From positions 61,103 to 125,102 of the IMG/VR virus record IMGVR_UViG_3300025413_001393: 64,000 bases of DNA, one strand, 5' to 3'. Under the pieces are notes generated by a model, which did not search any database, was not told where the DNA came from, and was given only the letters and a program-made list of their open reading frames with translations. The position numbers and the translations under genes were made by a program. Shown in pieces: positions 23,257 through 42,777 of the stretch; position 1 is the first letter of the stretch, and every line of letters begins with the position of its first letter. Source of the stretch: a virus.

Positions 23257-23691
23257 ATGGACCTTGGTCACTGGCAACTTTCTGAAGGTTTAGATCCTAA
23301 AGAAGACGCATTTGGTTTCATCTATCTTATTACTTGTACGATCAACGATAGAAAATACATCGGAAAGAAACAATGTGTTTCTAAGGTCAAACGTCCTCCA
23401 TTAAAAGGAAAGAAGAAATGTCGCAGGTCGACTAAAGAAAGCGATTGGAAGACATATACCGGCTCTTCAAACGAGCTTAACGCTGACATTGCTAGATACG
23501 GTAAAGATAAATTTAATTTTACAATTTTAGAGTGGTGTGATTCTAAATTTGCATTAGGATATAGGGAGATTAAAAGACAACTTGCCGAAGACGTCATTTT
23601 AAAAGAAGAATACTACAACGGTATCGTGAATTGTCGTCTTGGCAAAAGTCCAAAAAACTTTTTAATAAATGAGCACCAAAACCTTTCCTAA
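23257..23691 (+). CDS. GIY-YIG family nuclease
   Basis: FGFIYLIT...RKYIGKK, ESDWKTYTGSS, YYNG. Confidence 0.85.
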   Translation: MDLGHWQLSEGLDPKEDAFGFIYLITCTINDRKYIGKKQCVSKVKRPPLKGKKKCRRSTKESDWKTYTGSSNELNADIARYGKDKFNFTILEWCDSKFALGYREIKRQLAEDVILKEEYYNGIVNCRLGKSPKNFLINEHQNLS

Positions 23692-24109
23692 ATCTCGTGT
23701 TTGTGTTATAGACATATACCCTTTTTTTGAACAAGGGCTTAAGAAGGCTATTGAGTTTTCAAACAAAAATGGTATTCATATGAATACGAGTGATGGTAAA
23801 AAAGTTATAATGGGGTTTTGTCTTGAGTATATTGAAAAAGCTTATAACGAAACACAAAGCCAATATCCTAAAGTATTGTGTATGGGTTCAAAAGCTAAAA
23901 ATTCAATACTTCAAGCATTTATTGATAAACATTTTAACACTATAATGAAACACGTACCGTATTCATACTGTGGTAATGTATCTATTCAATCGCCAGATCT
24001 AGAAGCAGCAGCTCAAAATAGTCTTAAGCAAACAAAGCCTGAACGCAATTATACGGCTTTGAAATTAAAAATGGGAATGAAGAAGCTTATAAAAAAGCCT
24101 ACTCAGTAG
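23669..24109 (+). CDS. hypothetical protein
   Basis: 146-aa ORF overlapping previous gene end. Confidence 0.55.
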   Translation: MSTKTFPKSRVCVIDIYPFFEQGLKKAIEFSNKNGIHMNTSDGKKVIMGFCLEYIEKAYNETQSQYPKVLCMGSKAKNSILQAFIDKHFNTIMKHVPYSYCGNVSIQSPDLEAAAQNSLKQTKPERNYTALKLKMGMKKLIKKPTQ

Positions 24110-24782
24110 TTCTGCTCTGTTGTACAGCAACAAACTCGTCCGTATTAATATCAGAAATTAAACTTCCATCTTGTTCTCCGTAAGCCTTGCCACTTTCCTT
24201 TATGTACAGTTTTAGTTGTGGAAGTCTCAAATCCGGAGGACCTAACAATTCGATAACTGCTGGACAATCATCTACTGGGAAAAAAGCTCCAGATTGTTTT
24301 TCGTAAGAAGATACTAACGCTTTAAAGATGTTATCAATTTCTTCTCTAAAGACTGCATCCGTTTCTCTGTTCTCTCTTTCAGTCAAAGGAATTTCGTCTC
24401 TTGCTGGAACATAAAAAATGATATCATAATAATGAAGAGCTGCTCTTGCAATATCTTTTGATTCTTTGAGAAAGTCTGCATCAAATCCTTCTGTGCCATA
24501 TCCTGCATGCCACAAAGAGTATACGATATTATCAACTACGCATCTATCAAACACGATAAACTCATCGTTTGACGCTGAAGCAAGTTGAGCTTCTTCAACA
24601 AGAGCACTAAGAATGTTCTTTTGAACGTCTGTTGTGCTCTCTTTGTTTACAAGCAAACCCTGTTCATTAATAATATCTCTATATGTTCTCGACGGCCTTT
24701 TATACATAGGCCATTGCTGAATCATTCCCTCAATGAGGGTACTTTTCCCGACAGCTCCTGCTCCACAAAAGGCCACTCTCAT
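24099..24782 (-). CDS. P-loop nucleotide kinase-like protein (AAA_28/dNMP kinase-like)
   Basis: AFCGAGAVGKST, VFDRCVVDN, YDIIFY. Confidence 0.75.
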   Translation of the reverse strand: MRVAFCGAGAVGKSTLIEGMIQQWPMYKRPSRTYRDIINEQGLLVNKESTTDVQKNILSALVEEAQLASASNDEFIVFDRCVVDNIVYSLWHAGYGTEGFDADFLKESKDIARAALHYYDIIFYVPARDEIPLTERENRETDAVFREEIDNIFKALVSSYEKQSGAFFPVDDCPAVIELLGPPDLRLPQLKLYIKESGKAYGEQDGSLISDINTDEFVAVQQSRTTE

Positions 24783-25858
24783 ATTTTTTCTCCTTTTGAA
24801 ATAAATTTTAATAATCCTTGTTGTTCAAGTTTATATATGTCTGTTTTTGTTAACATTTTAAAATTTTTTTCTGTGTACATTTTATATGTTTTATTAAGTT
24901 GTTTGGCTTTTTCTGTCCCAGCCTTTGCTTTATTTATATTGTTTCCAAAATCAATCAACCGCGATGGTTTAATTTCTATTATTTCTGTTTCGGTAATAAA
25001 ATCAGGAAAATAGTTTCTTAATTTGCCTTCAGATGTCATATAGGGAATCATATGTATATCTAATTCTCCTGATTCCCATTCAATGTTATTTTGTTCTAAA
25101 TAATTTACTATAAAAGATAATTCCATTAAAGATCTAAAAAAACTTCTCTTATAATATCCTTTATATCCTCTGCCAGAAAATTCGGCAGCAGGTTTTCCAA
25201 ATTGTGGATTATCTTTTCCAAATCTTTTTTTTCTTATGACGGTTTTATTAGTTTCTTGCCATTTTTTTTGTATTTTTTGAGCTTTTTCTAATCCAAACAC
25301 TTCAATATTTGACTTACCAGTTCTATTTTTACTCCACTCGTTTAGTTTGGAGTATCTTGAAGGACAGGACATAATTTCTGCTAGTCTGGATTTAATTTGT
25401 TTAGTTTTTTCTACACCATATATTTCCTCGTATGTTTTTCCTTTATTATACAAATTTCTTTTTCGTAAAATATCACTTTTTATGCACGTTAAACATTCGA
25501 ATAAATAATTACTATTGTCTTTTAATTTTTTAAGCATATTACGTTTATGACCATAATAATCTACGTCTGTAATACTTGAACACTTTGAGCATTTTGTCAA
25601 TACCCGCTGTGTAGTTATTAATCTACCTTGCTTATTTCTTTTTAGTTCAGACTCTATTTCTGGTCCAAAATATTCAACACGAGAAGGTATTTTGCTTTTA
25701 CAATCCCTACAAACCCATTTTAAATTTGAATCAATTCTATTACAAATATTATTATAGAGATGTCGTTGAATTGTCAAACACTTATGACATTGTATTTCAA
25801 CTTTTTGCCATTTTAATATATTTCCTGAATTATCTTTTTGTAGTTCGGTCAGTATCAT
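24779..25858 (-). mobile_element. free-standing homing-endonuclease-like gene (Zn ribbons + PD-(D/E)XK C-terminus)
   Basis: four CxxC pairs, GKTYEEIYG/GKSNIEVFG repeats, FRSLMELSF...YFPDF...IIEIKP nuclease motif; inserted into kinase 5' end. Confidence 0.75.
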
Positions 25859-25867
25859 TAATACTAC

Positions 25868-25900
25868 TTATGCTCCTGCTCCCATAAATGCAATCTTCAT
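25868..25900 (-). pseudogene. stranded 5' fragment of the kinase gene (MKIAFMGAGA-stop)
   Basis: matches MRVAFCGAGA start of 24099-24782; has own TAAATA upstream. Confidence 0.8.
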
Positions 25901-25934
25901 GAGAGGTATTTACTGGAGATCGAAATTATATCTA

Positions 25935-26693
25935 CTAAACCTTGAGGGCGCGGTCCCAAACCAAGAGATGTAATCTTGGACTAAAGTTGACATGCATAGC
26001 CTTTGCATATTCAGCAACAGCTGGTGCATTAGCAATATGTTCCTGTCTCGATCCACTACAAGGCATGAACCAAATTCTTTGAAGAGGAACATTAATGCCG
26101 TTATAATCATCAACATATTTTCTCCAAATCTCTTCAATGTCTCTGTCAGAAGTAATAACAAACTTAAATCCAGAATTATGTTCAACGTGCCATTTGAGAA
26201 CTTCTGGCTTGTATGTCTTTTCTTCAGGATCTCCGTTTGTCGTAAGCTTTGGAGAAGTCGTAAACGTAGCACAAAACTCTGTTACCCAACGCTCGTCTGG
26301 AATAAGAGTTGCATTAGATTCAAAATCAATACGAGGAGTAAATCCATACTTCTGCACAAATGACTCCATAAACTTCAATAAGGCTTTTTGCTGAAGAAGT
26401 GGTTCACCACCAGTAATTTTCAAAATAGCTCTATTACGAAGATGCTCAACGTAATTGTTGTCTTCCATCAATTTGAAAATCTCATCAAATGTCATCTTGT
26501 TCTTAATAGACCATGAAATAAACGAATCACAACCATTTGGAGAATCCTCTGAAGCAAAGCCTATGCAAGTTAAATTGCACATCGAAAGTCTTAGAAATAC
26601 AGAAGGCTGACCAACATACTCTCCTTCTCCTTCTAACGTATAAAAACAATAATCGTCGCTAATAAACAGCGTTTCTTTAGAGGTATCAATCAT
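25935..26693 (-). CDS. queE: 7-carboxy-7-deazaguanine synthase (radical SAM)
   Basis: FYTLEGEG, VFLRL..CNLTC...CDS, ITGGEPLL, SPKL, SPRLH. Confidence 0.9.
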   Translation of the reverse strand: MIDTSKETLFISDDYCFYTLEGEGEYVGQPSVFLRLSMCNLTCIGFASEDSPNGCDSFISWSIKNKMTFDEIFKLMEDNNYVEHLRNRAILKITGGEPLLQQKALLKFMESFVQKYGFTPRIDFESNATLIPDERWVTEFCATFTTSPKLTTNGDPEEKTYKPEVLKWHVEHNSGFKFVITSDRDIEEIWRKYVDDYNGINVPLQRIWFMPCSGSRQEHIANAPAVAEYAKAMHVNFSPRLHLLVWDRALKV

Positions 26694-41474: not shown

Positions 41475-42149
41475 ATGTCCAATAATATTCTTGTCATTTC
41501 AGATATTCATCTAGGAAGTCCTGTTTCAAAGGTTAAACCTCTTGCTAAGGTATTAAAAAATGAAAAATATGAACATCTTGTTGTATTGGGTGACCTATTC
41601 GATTCTAAGTATATAGAAAGATACAAAAAGAGACATTGGAATATTCTAAGTCTATTAAGAAAAATATCAAAGAAGAAGAAAGTTACTTTTATTCTTGGTA
41701 ATCATGATCTAAAGTCAAAGAACATTATTAAGATCCTAGGACTAGAGTTTGTTGAGAAGTTAGAACTTGAAGTAAATGGAAAGAAGATGTTGTTTATTCA
41801 TTTTCACCAGTTTGATCCTTTTATTTTTAAGCACCCTTGGATAACAGATATTGCTGAAAGGATTTATTATTTTTTCCAGAGCATAGACAGATCAAAGAAA
41901 TTTAGTAGATGGTTAAAGAGAACATCTAAAAGGTTCTTAAAGATCAAAACCAATATAAGAGACAAAGCTCTAAACTATATCAAAGACAAAAACTATGATG
42001 CCATTTTTGGAGGACATATTCATTTTGCTGAAAGCTTTGTATGTCCAGAATCAGGAAAAGAGTACCACAACTCAGGCTCTTTTTGTGATGAGCCTTGTCA
42101 CTATCTAATAATAGACAAGGAAGGTAAGGTTACTTTGAAAGAGATTTAA
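41475..42149 (+). CDS. metallophosphoesterase (LpxH/UDP-2,3-diacylglucosamine hydrolase-like)
   Basis: ISDIHLG, LGDLFD, GNHD, HFHQFD, GGHIH, NSGSF. Confidence 0.85.
   Translation: MSNNILVISDIHLGSPVSKVKPLAKVLKNEKYEHLVVLGDLFDSKYIERYKKRHWNILSLLRKISKKKKVTFILGNHDLKSKNIIKILGLEFVEKLELEVNGKKMLFIHFHQFDPFIFKHPWITDIAERIYYFFQSIDRSKKFSRWLKRTSKRFLKIKTNIRDKALNYIKDKNYDAIFGGHIHFAESFVCPESGKEYHNSGSFCDEPCHYLIIDKEGKVTLKEI
42066..42148 (+). repeat. 83-bp direct repeat, copy 1 (3' end of phosphoesterase)
   Basis: 77/83 identical to 42695-42777. Confidence 0.92.
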
Positions 42150-42151
42150 AG

Positions 42152-42682
42152 TTATTTATAACAAATAAAAATTGTTTCGTTTTTATTTCCTTTGGTTATA
42201 AAGGTTTTAAACCTACCTTCAGGAGCAAGTGTTTTTGTCAATCTTTCGTACAATTTAATTCGTGAAGGCTCTTTAGCTGCAAAGTATAATAATTTAACTT
42301 TATTTTTTTTTAAAAATGCTCTGATAAGATTAATCACTTTTCCAAAAACTTCAGCAGCTCCACCTACATTAGTAATACCTATTTTTTCAGACTTCTTTTT
42401 AATTCCTTTATCTTCAAAAGTTATTTCATAATTTTCAATAAAAACAGAGCCCATTAAATACTGGATCCCATCTGGTAATGCATCAATTTCCTCCTCATTT
42501 AAAATCTCCTCTAGAGGATAATGAGCAGCATACAACACATATGTTCTTCCATTAGATGCTTCGAATGTTGTCGAATGCTTTAAAGCAAAAATGTCATCAT
42601 TTGATTTCCATTTTGTTTCTGTTGAAGCTTGTGAATCGAAAAGCTCTAATAATAAAGATTCATAAAGACTATCAAATTTCAT
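42152..42682 (-). CDS. hypothetical protein between the 83-bp repeats
   Basis: TAAATA then MKFDSLYESLLLE; YFAAKEPSRIKLY motif shared with 33713-34285. Confidence 0.65.
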   Translation of the reverse strand: MKFDSLYESLLLELFDSQASTETKWKSNDDIFALKHSTTFEASNGRTYVLYAAHYPLEEILNEEEIDALPDGIQYLMGSVFIENYEITFEDKGIKKKSEKIGITNVGGAAEVFGKVINLIRAFLKKNKVKLLYFAAKEPSRIKLYERLTKTLAPEGRFKTFITKGNKNETIFICYK

Positions 42683-42694
42683 AAAATTATTTAT

Positions 42695-42777
42695 CACAAC
42701 TCAGGCTCTTTCTGTGACGAACCTTGTCACTATCTAATAATTGACAAGGAAGGTAGAGTTACTTTGAAAGAGATTTA
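42695..42777 (+). repeat. 83-bp direct repeat, copy 2
   Basis: orphan copy of phosphoesterase C-terminal coding sequence. Confidence 0.92.

What the first reader, a model, noticed from the sequence alone, without database searches (positions are those of the whole stretch)
24099..25900. Endonuclease inserted into a kinase P-loop and supplying a replacement N-terminus
Seen: upstream of the 359-aa endonuclease gene lies ATG AAG ATT GCA TTT ATG GGA GCA GGA GCA TAA (MKIAFMGAGA-stop, 25868-25900) with its own TAAATA. Downstream, the working kinase starts ATG AGA GTG GCC TTT TGT GGA GCA GGA GCT GTC GGG AAA AGT (MRVAFCGAGAVGKS) behind a new GGAGA SD. The two share GGAGCAGGAGC, and the truncating TAA is part of the element's own TAAGTA late-promoter-like box. 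Inference: the element cuts the conserved Walker A coding sequence and avoids killing the gene, without splicing, by carrying a recoded 5' end that is probably immune to its nuclease. The nuclease is a PD-(D/E)XK type with Zn ribbons, not the usual HNH/GIY-YIG.
Basis: partly seen in the sequence, partly recalled or inferred. Interest (0 to 1): 0.72.

Follow-up and report, generated by a model that had tools for sequence, protein, structure and literature searches.

The report
Homing endonuclease carrying spare kinase start
A selfish DNA-cutting-enzyme gene sits inside the ATP-binding-loop codons of a phage kinase gene and keeps the kinase whole by bringing a differently spelled copy of its first 19 codons, leaving the original start as a 10-codon stub; relatives of this enzyme sit in the same way at ATP-binding loops of several other kinds of phage genes.

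Summary
A relative that is about 99% identical (L003) lacks the 359-aa gene, and its kinase reads MKIAFMGAGAVGKS without a break, 38 nt after queE. The window has an extra 1118 nt (25871-24754) placed after the Walker A codons G-A-G-A.

The native 29-nt gene start survives as the stub MKIAFMGAGA-stop. The working kinase starts again at an ATGA overlap with the endonuclease stop. Its first 57 nt differ from L003 at 15 positions (8 synonymous codon changes, 3 replacements); the other 627 nt are identical.

The same MRVAFC start occurs on four kinase backbones that are 84-100% identical to one another, so it moves as a module.

The endonuclease has a TnsA-like PD-(D/E)XK domain (Z 8.4 to TnsA; E246, D286, E295 and K297 invariant), two CxxC...CxxC ribbons and NUMOD3-like repeats.

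Across IMG/VR, 32 of 57 clusters of its homologs sit just upstream of a gene that starts with a Walker A motif (background 14 of 308). At least 10 loci keep a stub that breaks 0-5 codons before GK[S/T].

Cleavage and immunity are untested.

The scan has noted similar start-replacement cassettes in other genomes. In print, the closest case I found is the fungal mitochondrial mORF gene hybrids.

The parts
25935..26693 (-). queE-like radical-SAM gene, the conserved upstream neighbour of the kinase
   Evidence: PHROG 2076 E 1.7e-40. It adjoins the kinase with a gap of 5-67 nt in most of 80 related loci.
25868..25900 (-). Stranded native kinase start: the mini-ORF MKIAFMGAGA-stop. Bases 25900-25872 (29 nt) are native; the TAA comes from the insert.
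   Evidence: 29 of 29 nt identical to the first 29 nt of the intact kinase in L003; the upstream flank as far as 25941 is also identical.
24754..25871 (-). The 1118-nt insert relative to L003. It consists of a 13-nt leader with TAAGTA, the endonuclease ORF, and a second diverged copy of the kinase's first 29 nt.
   Evidence: The two BLAST segments against L003 overlap by 29 nt in L003 and leave 1089 nt of the window unmatched.
25865..25870 (-). TAAGTA box, 6 nt before the endonuclease ATG. Its TAA ends the stub.
   Evidence: Read. TAAGTA also lies 5 nt before the ATG of the homolog in L005. Function untested.
24779..25858 (-). Free-standing homing endonuclease gene, 359 aa
   Evidence: Absent from L003 and L004. 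35 protein homologs and 161 IMG/VR relatives. A decayed remnant lies at the same site in L119.
25700..25789 (-). Zinc ribbon 1 (C24, C27, C50, C53)
   Evidence: These cysteines are invariant among the eight closest homologs. The model shows a beta hairpin at residues 19-34.
25484..25591 (-). Zinc ribbon 2 (C90, C93, C122, C125)
   Evidence: Invariant in all 13 aligned homologs.
25190..25441 (-). Helical repeats GKTYEEIYG / GKSNIEVFG / GKDNPQFGKP, NUMOD3-like and likely DNA-binding
   Evidence: G140, K141, T142, G214, N217, G221, K222 and P223 are invariant. PF07460 is recorded on more distant homologs. hmmscan did not detect it in this protein.
24836..25180 (-). TnsA-like PD-(D/E)XK nuclease domain (residues 227-341)
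   Evidence: PF08722 E 2.8e-5. VIA Z 8.4 to TnsA 1t0f_B and 6.5 to I-Bth0305I. E246, D286, E295 and K297 invariant.
24789..24793 (-). GGAGA Shine-Dalgarno sequence for the rebuilt kinase, lying inside the endonuclease 3' end
   Evidence: Read. The native start in L003 has no such sequence.
24726..24782 (-). Imported kinase start (codons 1-19, MRVAFCGAGAVGKSTLIEG), the co-converted foreign allele
   Evidence: 15 of 57 nt differ from L003: 8 synonymous codon changes plus K2R, I3V and M6C. There are no differences in the following 627 nt.
24099..24782 (-). AAA_28 P-loop kinase-like gene, intact, 227 aa
   Evidence: Pfam AAA_28 E 7e-13; PHROG 2107 'thymidylate kinase' E 6.8e-16.
25872..25882 (-). 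Left copy of the 11-nt direct repeat GGAGCAGGAGC (Walker A codons G-A-G-A)
   Evidence: the alignment
24754..24764 (-). Right copy of the 11-nt direct repeat GGAGCAGGAGC
   Evidence: the alignment

Best explanation
The 359-aa ORF is a free-standing homing endonuclease. Its catalytic domain is TnsA-like PD-(D/E)XK, and its DNA-binding part consists of zinc ribbons and NUMOD3-like repeats.

**Inferred mechanism.** The enzyme cuts endonuclease-free copies of the AAA_28 kinase gene in or next to the Walker A codons. Double-strand-break repair then copies, from an endonuclease-carrying phage, the endonuclease gene together with the donor's own version of the kinase start. That start is contiguous with the endonuclease 3' end (ATGA overlap, SD inside the endonuclease ORF).

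**Shown.** In this genome the right-hand exchange ended after codon 19. To the left of the break, the resident start was not resected and survives as a 29-nt stub, closed by the TAA of the incoming leader. The kinase is therefore rebuilt as a hybrid of a foreign start and the native body, with no intron, intein or splicing.

**Inferred.** The target is destroyed in two ways: the native half-site is separated from the rest, and the new copy is spelled differently.

**Undecided.** The left junction may have been made at first entry by one-sided, microhomology-type repair, or it may have been inherited from a donor that already carried a stub.
For: - **Presence/absence between near-identical genomes.** The window and L003 are 98.4-98.9% identical over 8.2 kb, and the only large difference is the 1118-nt insert.
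- **The conserved state is queE directly followed by the kinase.** This holds in most of 80 loci.
- **Sharp conversion tract.** 15 of 57 nt differ, then 0 of 627 nt.
- **L003 cannot be a deletion derivative.** A deletion between the repeats would keep the recoded codons 11-19, and L003 does not have them.
- **The start moves as a module.** The MRVAFC start is found on four backbones that are 84-100% identical, while near-identical backbones carry MKIAFM or MRLAFM.
- **Homing life cycle at the same site.** L005 has a full homolog there and L119 a decayed remnant.
- **Nuclease fold and catalytic residues are intact**.
- **Family-wide link to Walker A.** 32 of 57 homolog clusters lie directly upstream of a gene that starts with a Walker A motif, against 14 of 308 background ORFs (Fisher p 9e-20). 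The target genes include thymidylate kinase, guanylate kinase, AAA_3/5, AAA_33 and AAA_28.
- **Stubs elsewhere.** Stubs that copy the downstream gene's start and break 0-5 codons before GK[S/T] occur in L054, L008, L082, L059, L043, L009, L019, L057, L023 and L006.
- **Not an assembly artefact.** The identical endonuclease protein is recorded on 6 contigs and this kinase on 4.
Against: - No cleavage assay exists. The cut site is inferred only from where the stubs end and where the conversion tract lies.
- The donor is unsampled. The nearest other homolog, P0002, is only 73% identical.
- L005 shows that the same endonuclease lineage can sit upstream of the kinase without a stub. The stub may therefore be an accident of entry and not part of the design.
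- 25 of 57 homolog clusters are not next to a recognisable Walker A gene.
- The window's own PF08722 score (25.0 bits) is just under Pfam's cut-off (26.5).
Confidence: 0.8

Rival explanations
1. The endonuclease homes into the intergenic spot upstream of the kinase and cuts somewhere other than the Walker A codons. On this view the stub and the recoded tract are a single accidental rearrangement that says nothing about the target.
For: L005 has the homolog between queE and the kinase without any stub. Free-standing T4 endonucleases often cut at a distance from their genes (PMC2988022).
Against: At least 10 other loci with diverged homologs and five different target families have stubs that all end within the Walker A codons. 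The window's conversion tract spans exactly those codons.
Confidence: 0.1
2. The window's arrangement is ancestral, and L003 and the other relatives lost the endonuclease by deletion between the direct repeats.
For: An 11-nt perfect repeat (29 nt imperfect) flanks the insert and could mediate a deletion.
Against: Such a deletion would leave codons 11-19 in the recoded spelling, whereas L003 has the other spelling. Roughly 60 diverged relatives lack the insert. The stub is identical to L003's live gene start.
Confidence: 0.03
3. The nuclease is not selfish but a working partner of P-loop kinases, for example in a nucleotide-modification, defence or counter-defence module. Its place next to them would then reflect function.
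For: There is a strong family-wide adjacency to P-loop genes. The locus lies in a 7-deazaguanine (queD/queE) gene block.
Against: The partners belong to at least five unrelated P-loop families. The gene is present or absent between 99%-identical genomes. Other loci show a decayed copy (L119), stubs and mosaic gene starts. The DNA-binding modules are those typical of homing endonucleases.
Confidence: 0.05
4. The stub is rejoined to the gene, at the RNA or protein level, by a group I intron, an intein or a ribosomal bypass that removes the 1118 nt.
For: Removing the insert exactly would restore an in-frame gene. The stub is in frame with the endonuclease ORF.
Against: There is no Rfam match at E up to 1 on either strand. 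Only 13 nt of the insert are non-coding. The downstream ORF has its own SD, ATG and complete Walker A. I ran no test for intein motifs.
Confidence: 0.02
5. The duplication is a metagenome assembly chimera of two strain variants.
For: The window comes from an assembled IMG/VR contig.
Against: The identical endonuclease protein is recorded on 6 contigs and this exact kinase on 4. The same layout recurs in many independent assemblies.
Confidence: 0.01

Closest known systems
Mobile endonuclease ORFs (mORFs) that make gene hybrids in fungal mitochondria: Allomyces macrogynus atp6; Glomus atp6, atp9, cox2 and nad3 (PMC3630166). Related case: N-terminal duplications in Tremella fuciformis mitochondria (PMC7315562).
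   Same: An endonuclease ORF travels with a foreign copy of one end of the host gene. The hybrid gene stays functional without splicing. The native end is left beside it as a remnant that matches the element-free relative, and the imported copy differs mostly at synonymous sites.
   Different: Those elements replace the 3' end and are often fused in phase with the host gene; they use LAGLIDADG or GIY-YIG enzymes and live in organelles. Here the 5' end is replaced, the three reading frames are separate (stub, endonuclease, gene), the enzyme is TnsA-like, and the host is a phage.
Intronless homing by free-standing T4 endonucleases (SegF, SegG, MobE) with co-conversion of flanking markers (PMC2988022, PMC2790892)
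   Same: A free-standing gene lies next to its target gene. The endonuclease-free allele is cut and repaired from the endonuclease-carrying genome, and adjacent donor sequence is co-converted, which yields a resistant allele.
   Different: The T4 cases use GIY-YIG or HNH enzymes and leave no stranded piece of the target gene. Here a piece of the target survives upstream, and the endonuclease's stop codon overlaps the new gene start (ATGA).
[quoted passage not shown]
   Same: Homology on one side only, with a microhomology junction on the other. This would produce exactly a retained native end joined to donor sequence.
   Different: That was a laboratory intron system. Whether the window's left junction arose this way or was inherited cannot be decided.
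PD-(D/E)XK-fold homing endonucleases I-Ssp6803I and I-Bth0305I (EDxHD/Vsr-like) (PMC3424549, PMC3239194)
   Same: Restriction-endonuclease-like catalytic fold in a homing enzyme. I-Bth0305I aligns to the model at Z 6.5.
   Different: Both of those are intron-encoded. This domain is closest to TnsA (Z 8.4, PF08722) and has the motif E...PD...ExK. I found no paper that holds both 'NUMOD3' and 'TnsA'.
TnsA of Tn7, and the T4 gp4-type head completion nuclease
   Same: Best structural and Pfam match for residues 227-341. PHROG 218 'head closure' matches at E 2.3e-7, and a cyanophage 'head completion protein' is 39% identical over 87 aa. That T4 gp4 is a nuclease is from my memory of Benler et al. 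2020.
   Different: No TnsB/TnsC partners and no transposon ends; TnsA's C-terminal domain was not looked for. The protein is far longer than gp4 and carries sequence-reading modules.
MobA plus the gene 60 50-nt bypass cassette of T4 (Bonocora et al. 2011, from memory)
   Same: A homing endonuclease travels with a sequence that interrupts its own target inside a coding region. This applies to the side observation in L043, L080-84, L176-178 and L069.
   Different: The window's own kinase has no interruption. The candidate hops are 5-7 nt, not 50, and are untested.

Membership tests
Free-standing homing endonuclease (intronless homing) | Gene present or absent at the same site in otherwise near-identical genomes | tested here: met
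   The window and L003 are 98.4-98.9% identical over 8.2 kb, and a single 1118-nt insert is the only large difference.
Free-standing homing endonuclease (intronless homing) | Co-conversion tract of donor sequence next to the gene | tested here: met
   15 of 57 nt differ, then 0 of 627 nt. The MRVAFC module is found on four backbones.
Free-standing homing endonuclease (intronless homing) | Site-specific cleavage of the endonuclease-free allele and resistance of the carrier allele | not testable with these tools
   Needs a cleavage assay. Only indirect support exists, from the stub ends.
Free-standing homing endonuclease (intronless homing) | Invasion-and-decay cycle: degenerate copies at the same site in other lineages | tested here: met
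   L119 keeps only residues 273-344 of a homolog between queE and the kinase.
PD-(D/E)XK nuclease, TnsA-like (PF08722) | Pfam model match above the curated cut-off | tested here: inconclusive
   The window protein scores 25.0 bits, E 2.8e-5, against a cut-off of 26.5. PF08722 is recorded on most homologs.
PD-(D/E)XK nuclease, TnsA-like (PF08722) | Restriction-endonuclease-like fold with conserved acidic and lysine catalytic residues | tested here: met
   Model mean pLDDT 80.6. TnsA Z 8.4 with rmsd 3.1 over 105 residues; Foldseek probability 0.97-1.0. E246, D286, E295 and K297 invariant in 13 sequences.
NUMOD3 DNA-binding motif (PF07460) | Pfam model match | tested here: not met
   No PF07460 hit at E up to 0.1 in the window protein. 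The family is recorded on homologs P0020-P0032. The repeats in this protein are NUMOD3-like by eye only.
Group I intron-encoded endonuclease | Ribozyme core flanking the ORF | tested here: not met
   No Rfam match at E up to 1 in 23900-26100. Only 13 nt of the insert are non-coding.
Fungal-type mORF gene hybrid | Endonuclease ORF contiguous with a foreign copy of a host-gene terminus, with the native terminus left as a remnant that matches the element-free relative | tested here: met
   compared with the description in PMC3630166.
Fungal-type mORF gene hybrid | Imported piece is the 3' end, and the ORF is commonly fused in phase with the host gene | tested here: not met
   Here the 5' end is replaced. 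The stub, endonuclease and kinase are separate ORFs; the stub is in frame with the endonuclease but a TAA separates them.
AAA_28 P-loop kinase-like NTPase (the target gene) | Pfam match above the cut-off and an intact Walker A motif | tested here: met
   AAA_28 49.6 bits against a cut-off of 27. GAGAVGKS is present. The substrate is unknown.

The most novel reading that the evidence does not exclude
The window shows one member of a large, undescribed family of TnsA-like homing endonucleases that specialise in DNA encoding the Walker A motif. On this reading they spread among unrelated P-loop genes of phages (Tmk, Gmk, AAA_28, AAA_33, AAA+) as 'start-replacement cassettes', so they exchange gene N-termini between diverged phages. 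In one branch (AAA_33 kinases) the resistant allele appears to carry a hairpin plus a 5-7-nt insert containing a stop codon. That insert would have to be skipped by a short ribosomal hop, for example CCG-TAA-CCA, which would restore the motif GVPGSGKS.
Probability: 0.5. Interest if true: 0.9.

Novelty: new variant of a known kind. Interest (0 to 1): 0.75.

Why it matters
- **A third way to invade a coding sequence harmlessly.** Besides introns and inteins, a selfish endonuclease can bring a spare copy of the gene end it cuts off. This is known for 3' ends in fungal mitochondria. I found no description of the 5'-end version in phages.
- **A natural before-and-after pair.** L003 and the window pin down the insertion point, the conversion tract and the likely cut site to a few bases.
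- **A possible new class of homing enzyme.** The nuclease architecture (TnsA-like domain, zinc ribbons, NUMOD3-like repeats) is not among the characterised homing endonuclease families, and it appears to target the most widespread protein motif known.
- **Consequences for annotation.** Such cassettes create mosaic gene starts that can mislead gene calling. The collection holds calls of this kinase that start at Met6 or Met20 (222 and 208 aa). They can also mislead phylogeny.

Tried and rejected
- **Public phage records.** Megablast of the locus and tblastn of the kinase found nothing. The endonuclease matched only a cyanophage 'head completion protein'.
I could not read the contigs that carry P0002/P0159, P0164, P0037 or P0161.
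- **Pattern scans of viral contigs** for the MRVAFC start, both exact and degenerate, found nothing.
- **Intron or other structured RNA:** no Rfam match.
- **RNA structure in the new gene start:** not above shuffles, z -0.39. The small CCCTC/GAGGG hairpin created by four synonymous changes is noted but not claimed.
- **Promoter and terminator scan:** not above chance. I make no claim that TAAATA or TAAGTA are promoters.
- **L003 as a deletion derivative:** rejected on the spelling of codons 11-19.
- **Frameshifting in the interrupted AAA_33 kinases:** I saw no slippery site for a simple -1 or +1 shift, and a shifted product would add residues inside the Walker A motif.
Full report
**What is in the sequence.**
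- On the minus strand a queE-like radical-SAM gene (26693-25935) is followed by a TAAATA box (25912-25907).
- Next comes a 10-codon ORF, MKIAFMGAGA-stop (25900-25868).
- A 359-aa ORF follows (25858-24779).
- A 227-aa AAA_28 kinase-like ORF comes last (24782-24099). Its ATG overlaps the stop of the 359-aa ORF (ATGA), and it is preceded by GGAGA (24793-24789).
- The string GGAGCAGGAGC occurs at the end of the mini-ORF (25882-25872) and again in the kinase (24764-24754).
- The window is part of a 125-kb IMG/VR contig of a T4-like phage, and both the kinase and the 359-aa gene are single-copy in it.

- A search of viral contigs with the kinase found L003 (99% protein identity) and L004 (82%).
- In both, queE is followed after 35-38 nt by an unbroken kinase, and neither has the 359-aa gene.
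- L003 reads TAAATACCTCTC, then ATG AAG ATT GCA TTT ATG GGA GCA GGA GC, and runs straight on with T GTA GGT AAG AGT. The window's mini-ORF is therefore the true start of this gene, cut off after the Walker A codons G-A-G-A.
- Over 8.2 kb the two genomes are 98.4-98.9% identical, and the only large difference is 1118 nt (25871-24754).
- Within the kinase, 15 of the first 57 nt differ. Eight codons change synonymously, and there are three replacements (K2R, I3V, M6C). None of the remaining 627 nt differ.
- The left flank, from 25941 to the end of the stub, is identical to L003.
- A deletion between the repeats in the window's arrangement would keep the recoded codons 11-19. L003 does not have them, so the event was a gain in the window's lineage.
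- Among 80 loci found with queE, most have the kinase 5-67 nt downstream.

**Where the new start came from.**
- The protein collection holds the MRVAFCGAGAVGKSTLIEGM start on four kinase backbones. Over residues 21-220 these are 84-100% identical to the window's kinase: P0165 (the window's own), P0164, P0037 and P0161.
- Backbones that are identical or 95% identical to those carry MKIAFM or MRLAFM starts instead: P0036, P0156, P0160 and P0157-9.
- The start therefore does not follow the gene's phylogeny. It behaves as a mobile module, as expected for sequence co-converted with a homing endonuclease gene.
- It looks like a natural allele, because L004 also has Cys at position 6. It does not look like a purpose-made recoding.
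- P0159 and the 73%-identical endonuclease homolog P0002 share the same sources, contig count and longest-contig length (5070 nt). This suggests one contig, but I could not read it.

**The endonuclease.**
- Pfam gives TnsA-like N (PF08722, E 2.8e-5, just under the cut-off), and most homologs carry that family.
- In 13 aligned homologs E246, D286, E295 and K297 are invariant, which gives the motif E...PD...ExK. So are the four cysteines of the second ribbon. The first ribbon is invariant among the eight closest homologs.
- An AlphaFold model (mean pLDDT 80.6) matches TnsA best (Foldseek probability 0.97-1.0; VIA Z 8.4, rmsd 3.1, 105 residues). Other restriction-fold nucleases follow, including the homing enzyme I-Bth0305I at Z 6.5.
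- NUMOD3 (PF07460) is recorded on more distant homologs but was not detected in this protein.
- At the same site, L005 has a 53%-identical full-length homolog between queE and the kinase. It also has TAAGTA before its ATG, but no stub. L119 has only a decayed C-terminal piece.

**The family pattern.**
- IMG/VR holds 161 relatives, and I analysed the best 80 (59 clusters at 80% identity).
- In 32 of the 57 clusters with downstream DNA, a Walker A motif is encoded within a few codons after the endonuclease stop. The background is 14 of 308 other ORFs (Fisher p 9e-20).
- The endonuclease 3' end often overlaps the start of that gene by 3 to 49 nt.
- The downstream genes belong to thymidylate kinase, guanylate kinase, AAA_3/5, AAA_33 and AAA_28.
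- Many loci also have, upstream of the endonuclease, a short ORF that is a diverged copy of the downstream gene's start and breaks off in the Walker A codons.

| Locus | Stub (upstream) | Downstream gene start |
|---|---|---|
| L008 | ...EGEDHCG then junk | ...EGQDHCGKTT |
| L059 | ...GSTFSG | ...GATCSGKT |
| L019 | ...EDGDRV | ...EGGDRLGKST |
| L054 | ...WSGPG | ...WGPPGCSKS |

- L082, L043, L009, L057, L023 and L006 show the same thing.
- The break lies 0-5 codons before the lysine codon. This is the main, though indirect, evidence that the enzymes cut Walker A DNA.

**Mechanism.**
- *Shown:* the insertion, its position, the foreign start, the mosaic distribution of that start, the nuclease fold, and the family-wide link to Walker A genes.
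- *Inferred:* cleavage of naive alleles at the Walker A codons; repair from a carrier genome that copies the endonuclease plus the adjoining gene start; resistance of the rebuilt site.
- The retained stub fits one-sided homing with illegitimate repair on the side that lacks homology, as described for T4 (PMC2988022). It could also have been inherited from a donor that already had a stub.
- No intron or other RNA family matches the region, there is no significant RNA structure, and promoter-like sites are not above chance.

**Comparison with what is known.**
- The closest parallel is the mobile endonuclease ORFs of fungal mitochondria. They carry a foreign 3' end of atp6, atp9, cox2 or nad3 and leave the native end as a remnant (PMC3630166). 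N-terminal duplications have been reported in Tremella mitochondria (PMC7315562).
- Intronless homing with co-conversion is well known in T4 (PMC2988022, PMC2790892).
- I found no paper that holds both 'NUMOD3' and 'TnsA', and my Walker A and P-loop searches turned up no paper describing a phage endonuclease that targets Walker A codons with a replacement gene start.
- Earlier notes of this scan report similar cassettes in other genomes. I reached the reading before seeing them, and I tested the family pattern independently here.

**Limits.**
- The donor, the other MRVAFC contigs and the P0002 locus therefore remain unread.

Noticed in passing
L176:2454-2530 (also L177, L178); L082:3517-3590 (also L080, L081, L083, L084); L043:3522-3595; L069:3540-3600: AAA_33 kinase genes are interrupted inside the Walker A codons. 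A perfect 9-10-bp hairpin (CCCCTCTCA...TGAGAGGGG, or GGAGCCCTCT...AGAGGGCTCC) is followed by a Pro codon, a stop codon and a few extra bases before GGT. The three forms are GTA CCG TAA CCA GGT (6 nt, in frame, no endonuclease nearby), CCG TGA CA GGT (5 nt, with an endonuclease and a stub) and CCA TAA ATCA GGT (7 nt). A hop from the Pro codon to the xCA codon would restore G-x4-GK[S/T]. Relatives L175, L179 and L180 are uninterrupted and have no hairpin. The 72-nt module is 96% identical between L082 and L043, while the next 450 nt are 60% identical. This could be a ribosomal stop-hop tied to endonuclease immunity, or these could be pseudogenes.
   Followed up: partly
window 42066-42777: A minus-strand gene (42152-42682, weak DUF6934 match) is flanked by two copies of an 83-bp stretch, which is the 3' end of the upstream plus-strand gene. 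The first copy ends that gene and the second is stranded. This is the 3'-end counterpart of the stub described here, but with no recognisable nuclease. I read it and ran Pfam.
   Followed up: partly
window 23257-23691 (+): A 144-aa SegE-type GIY-YIG domain protein (PF19835, E 9e-33) lies two genes from the kinase. It is also present in L003 and L005, so it is not polymorphic among these relatives.
   Followed up: no
L117:3756-4413; L121, L126, L129, L137, L143, L156, L158, L162, L164 between queE and the kinase: The queE-kinase junction is an insertion hotspot. One lineage has a 199-aa minus-strand ORF there. Many more distant lineages have a conserved 200-aa HNH-motif protein, sometimes with further genes.
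   Followed up: no
window 24727-24739: Four of the synonymous changes in the imported gene start create a 5-bp CCCTC/GAGGG hairpin that the L003 spelling lacks. It is not significant in folding tests. Its core resembles the hairpin of the interrupted AAA_33 alleles.
   Followed up: partly
window 24099-24782: The protein collection holds this kinase called from internal Met codons (222-aa and 208-aa versions). This shows how mosaic or duplicated gene starts disturb gene calling.
   Followed up: no
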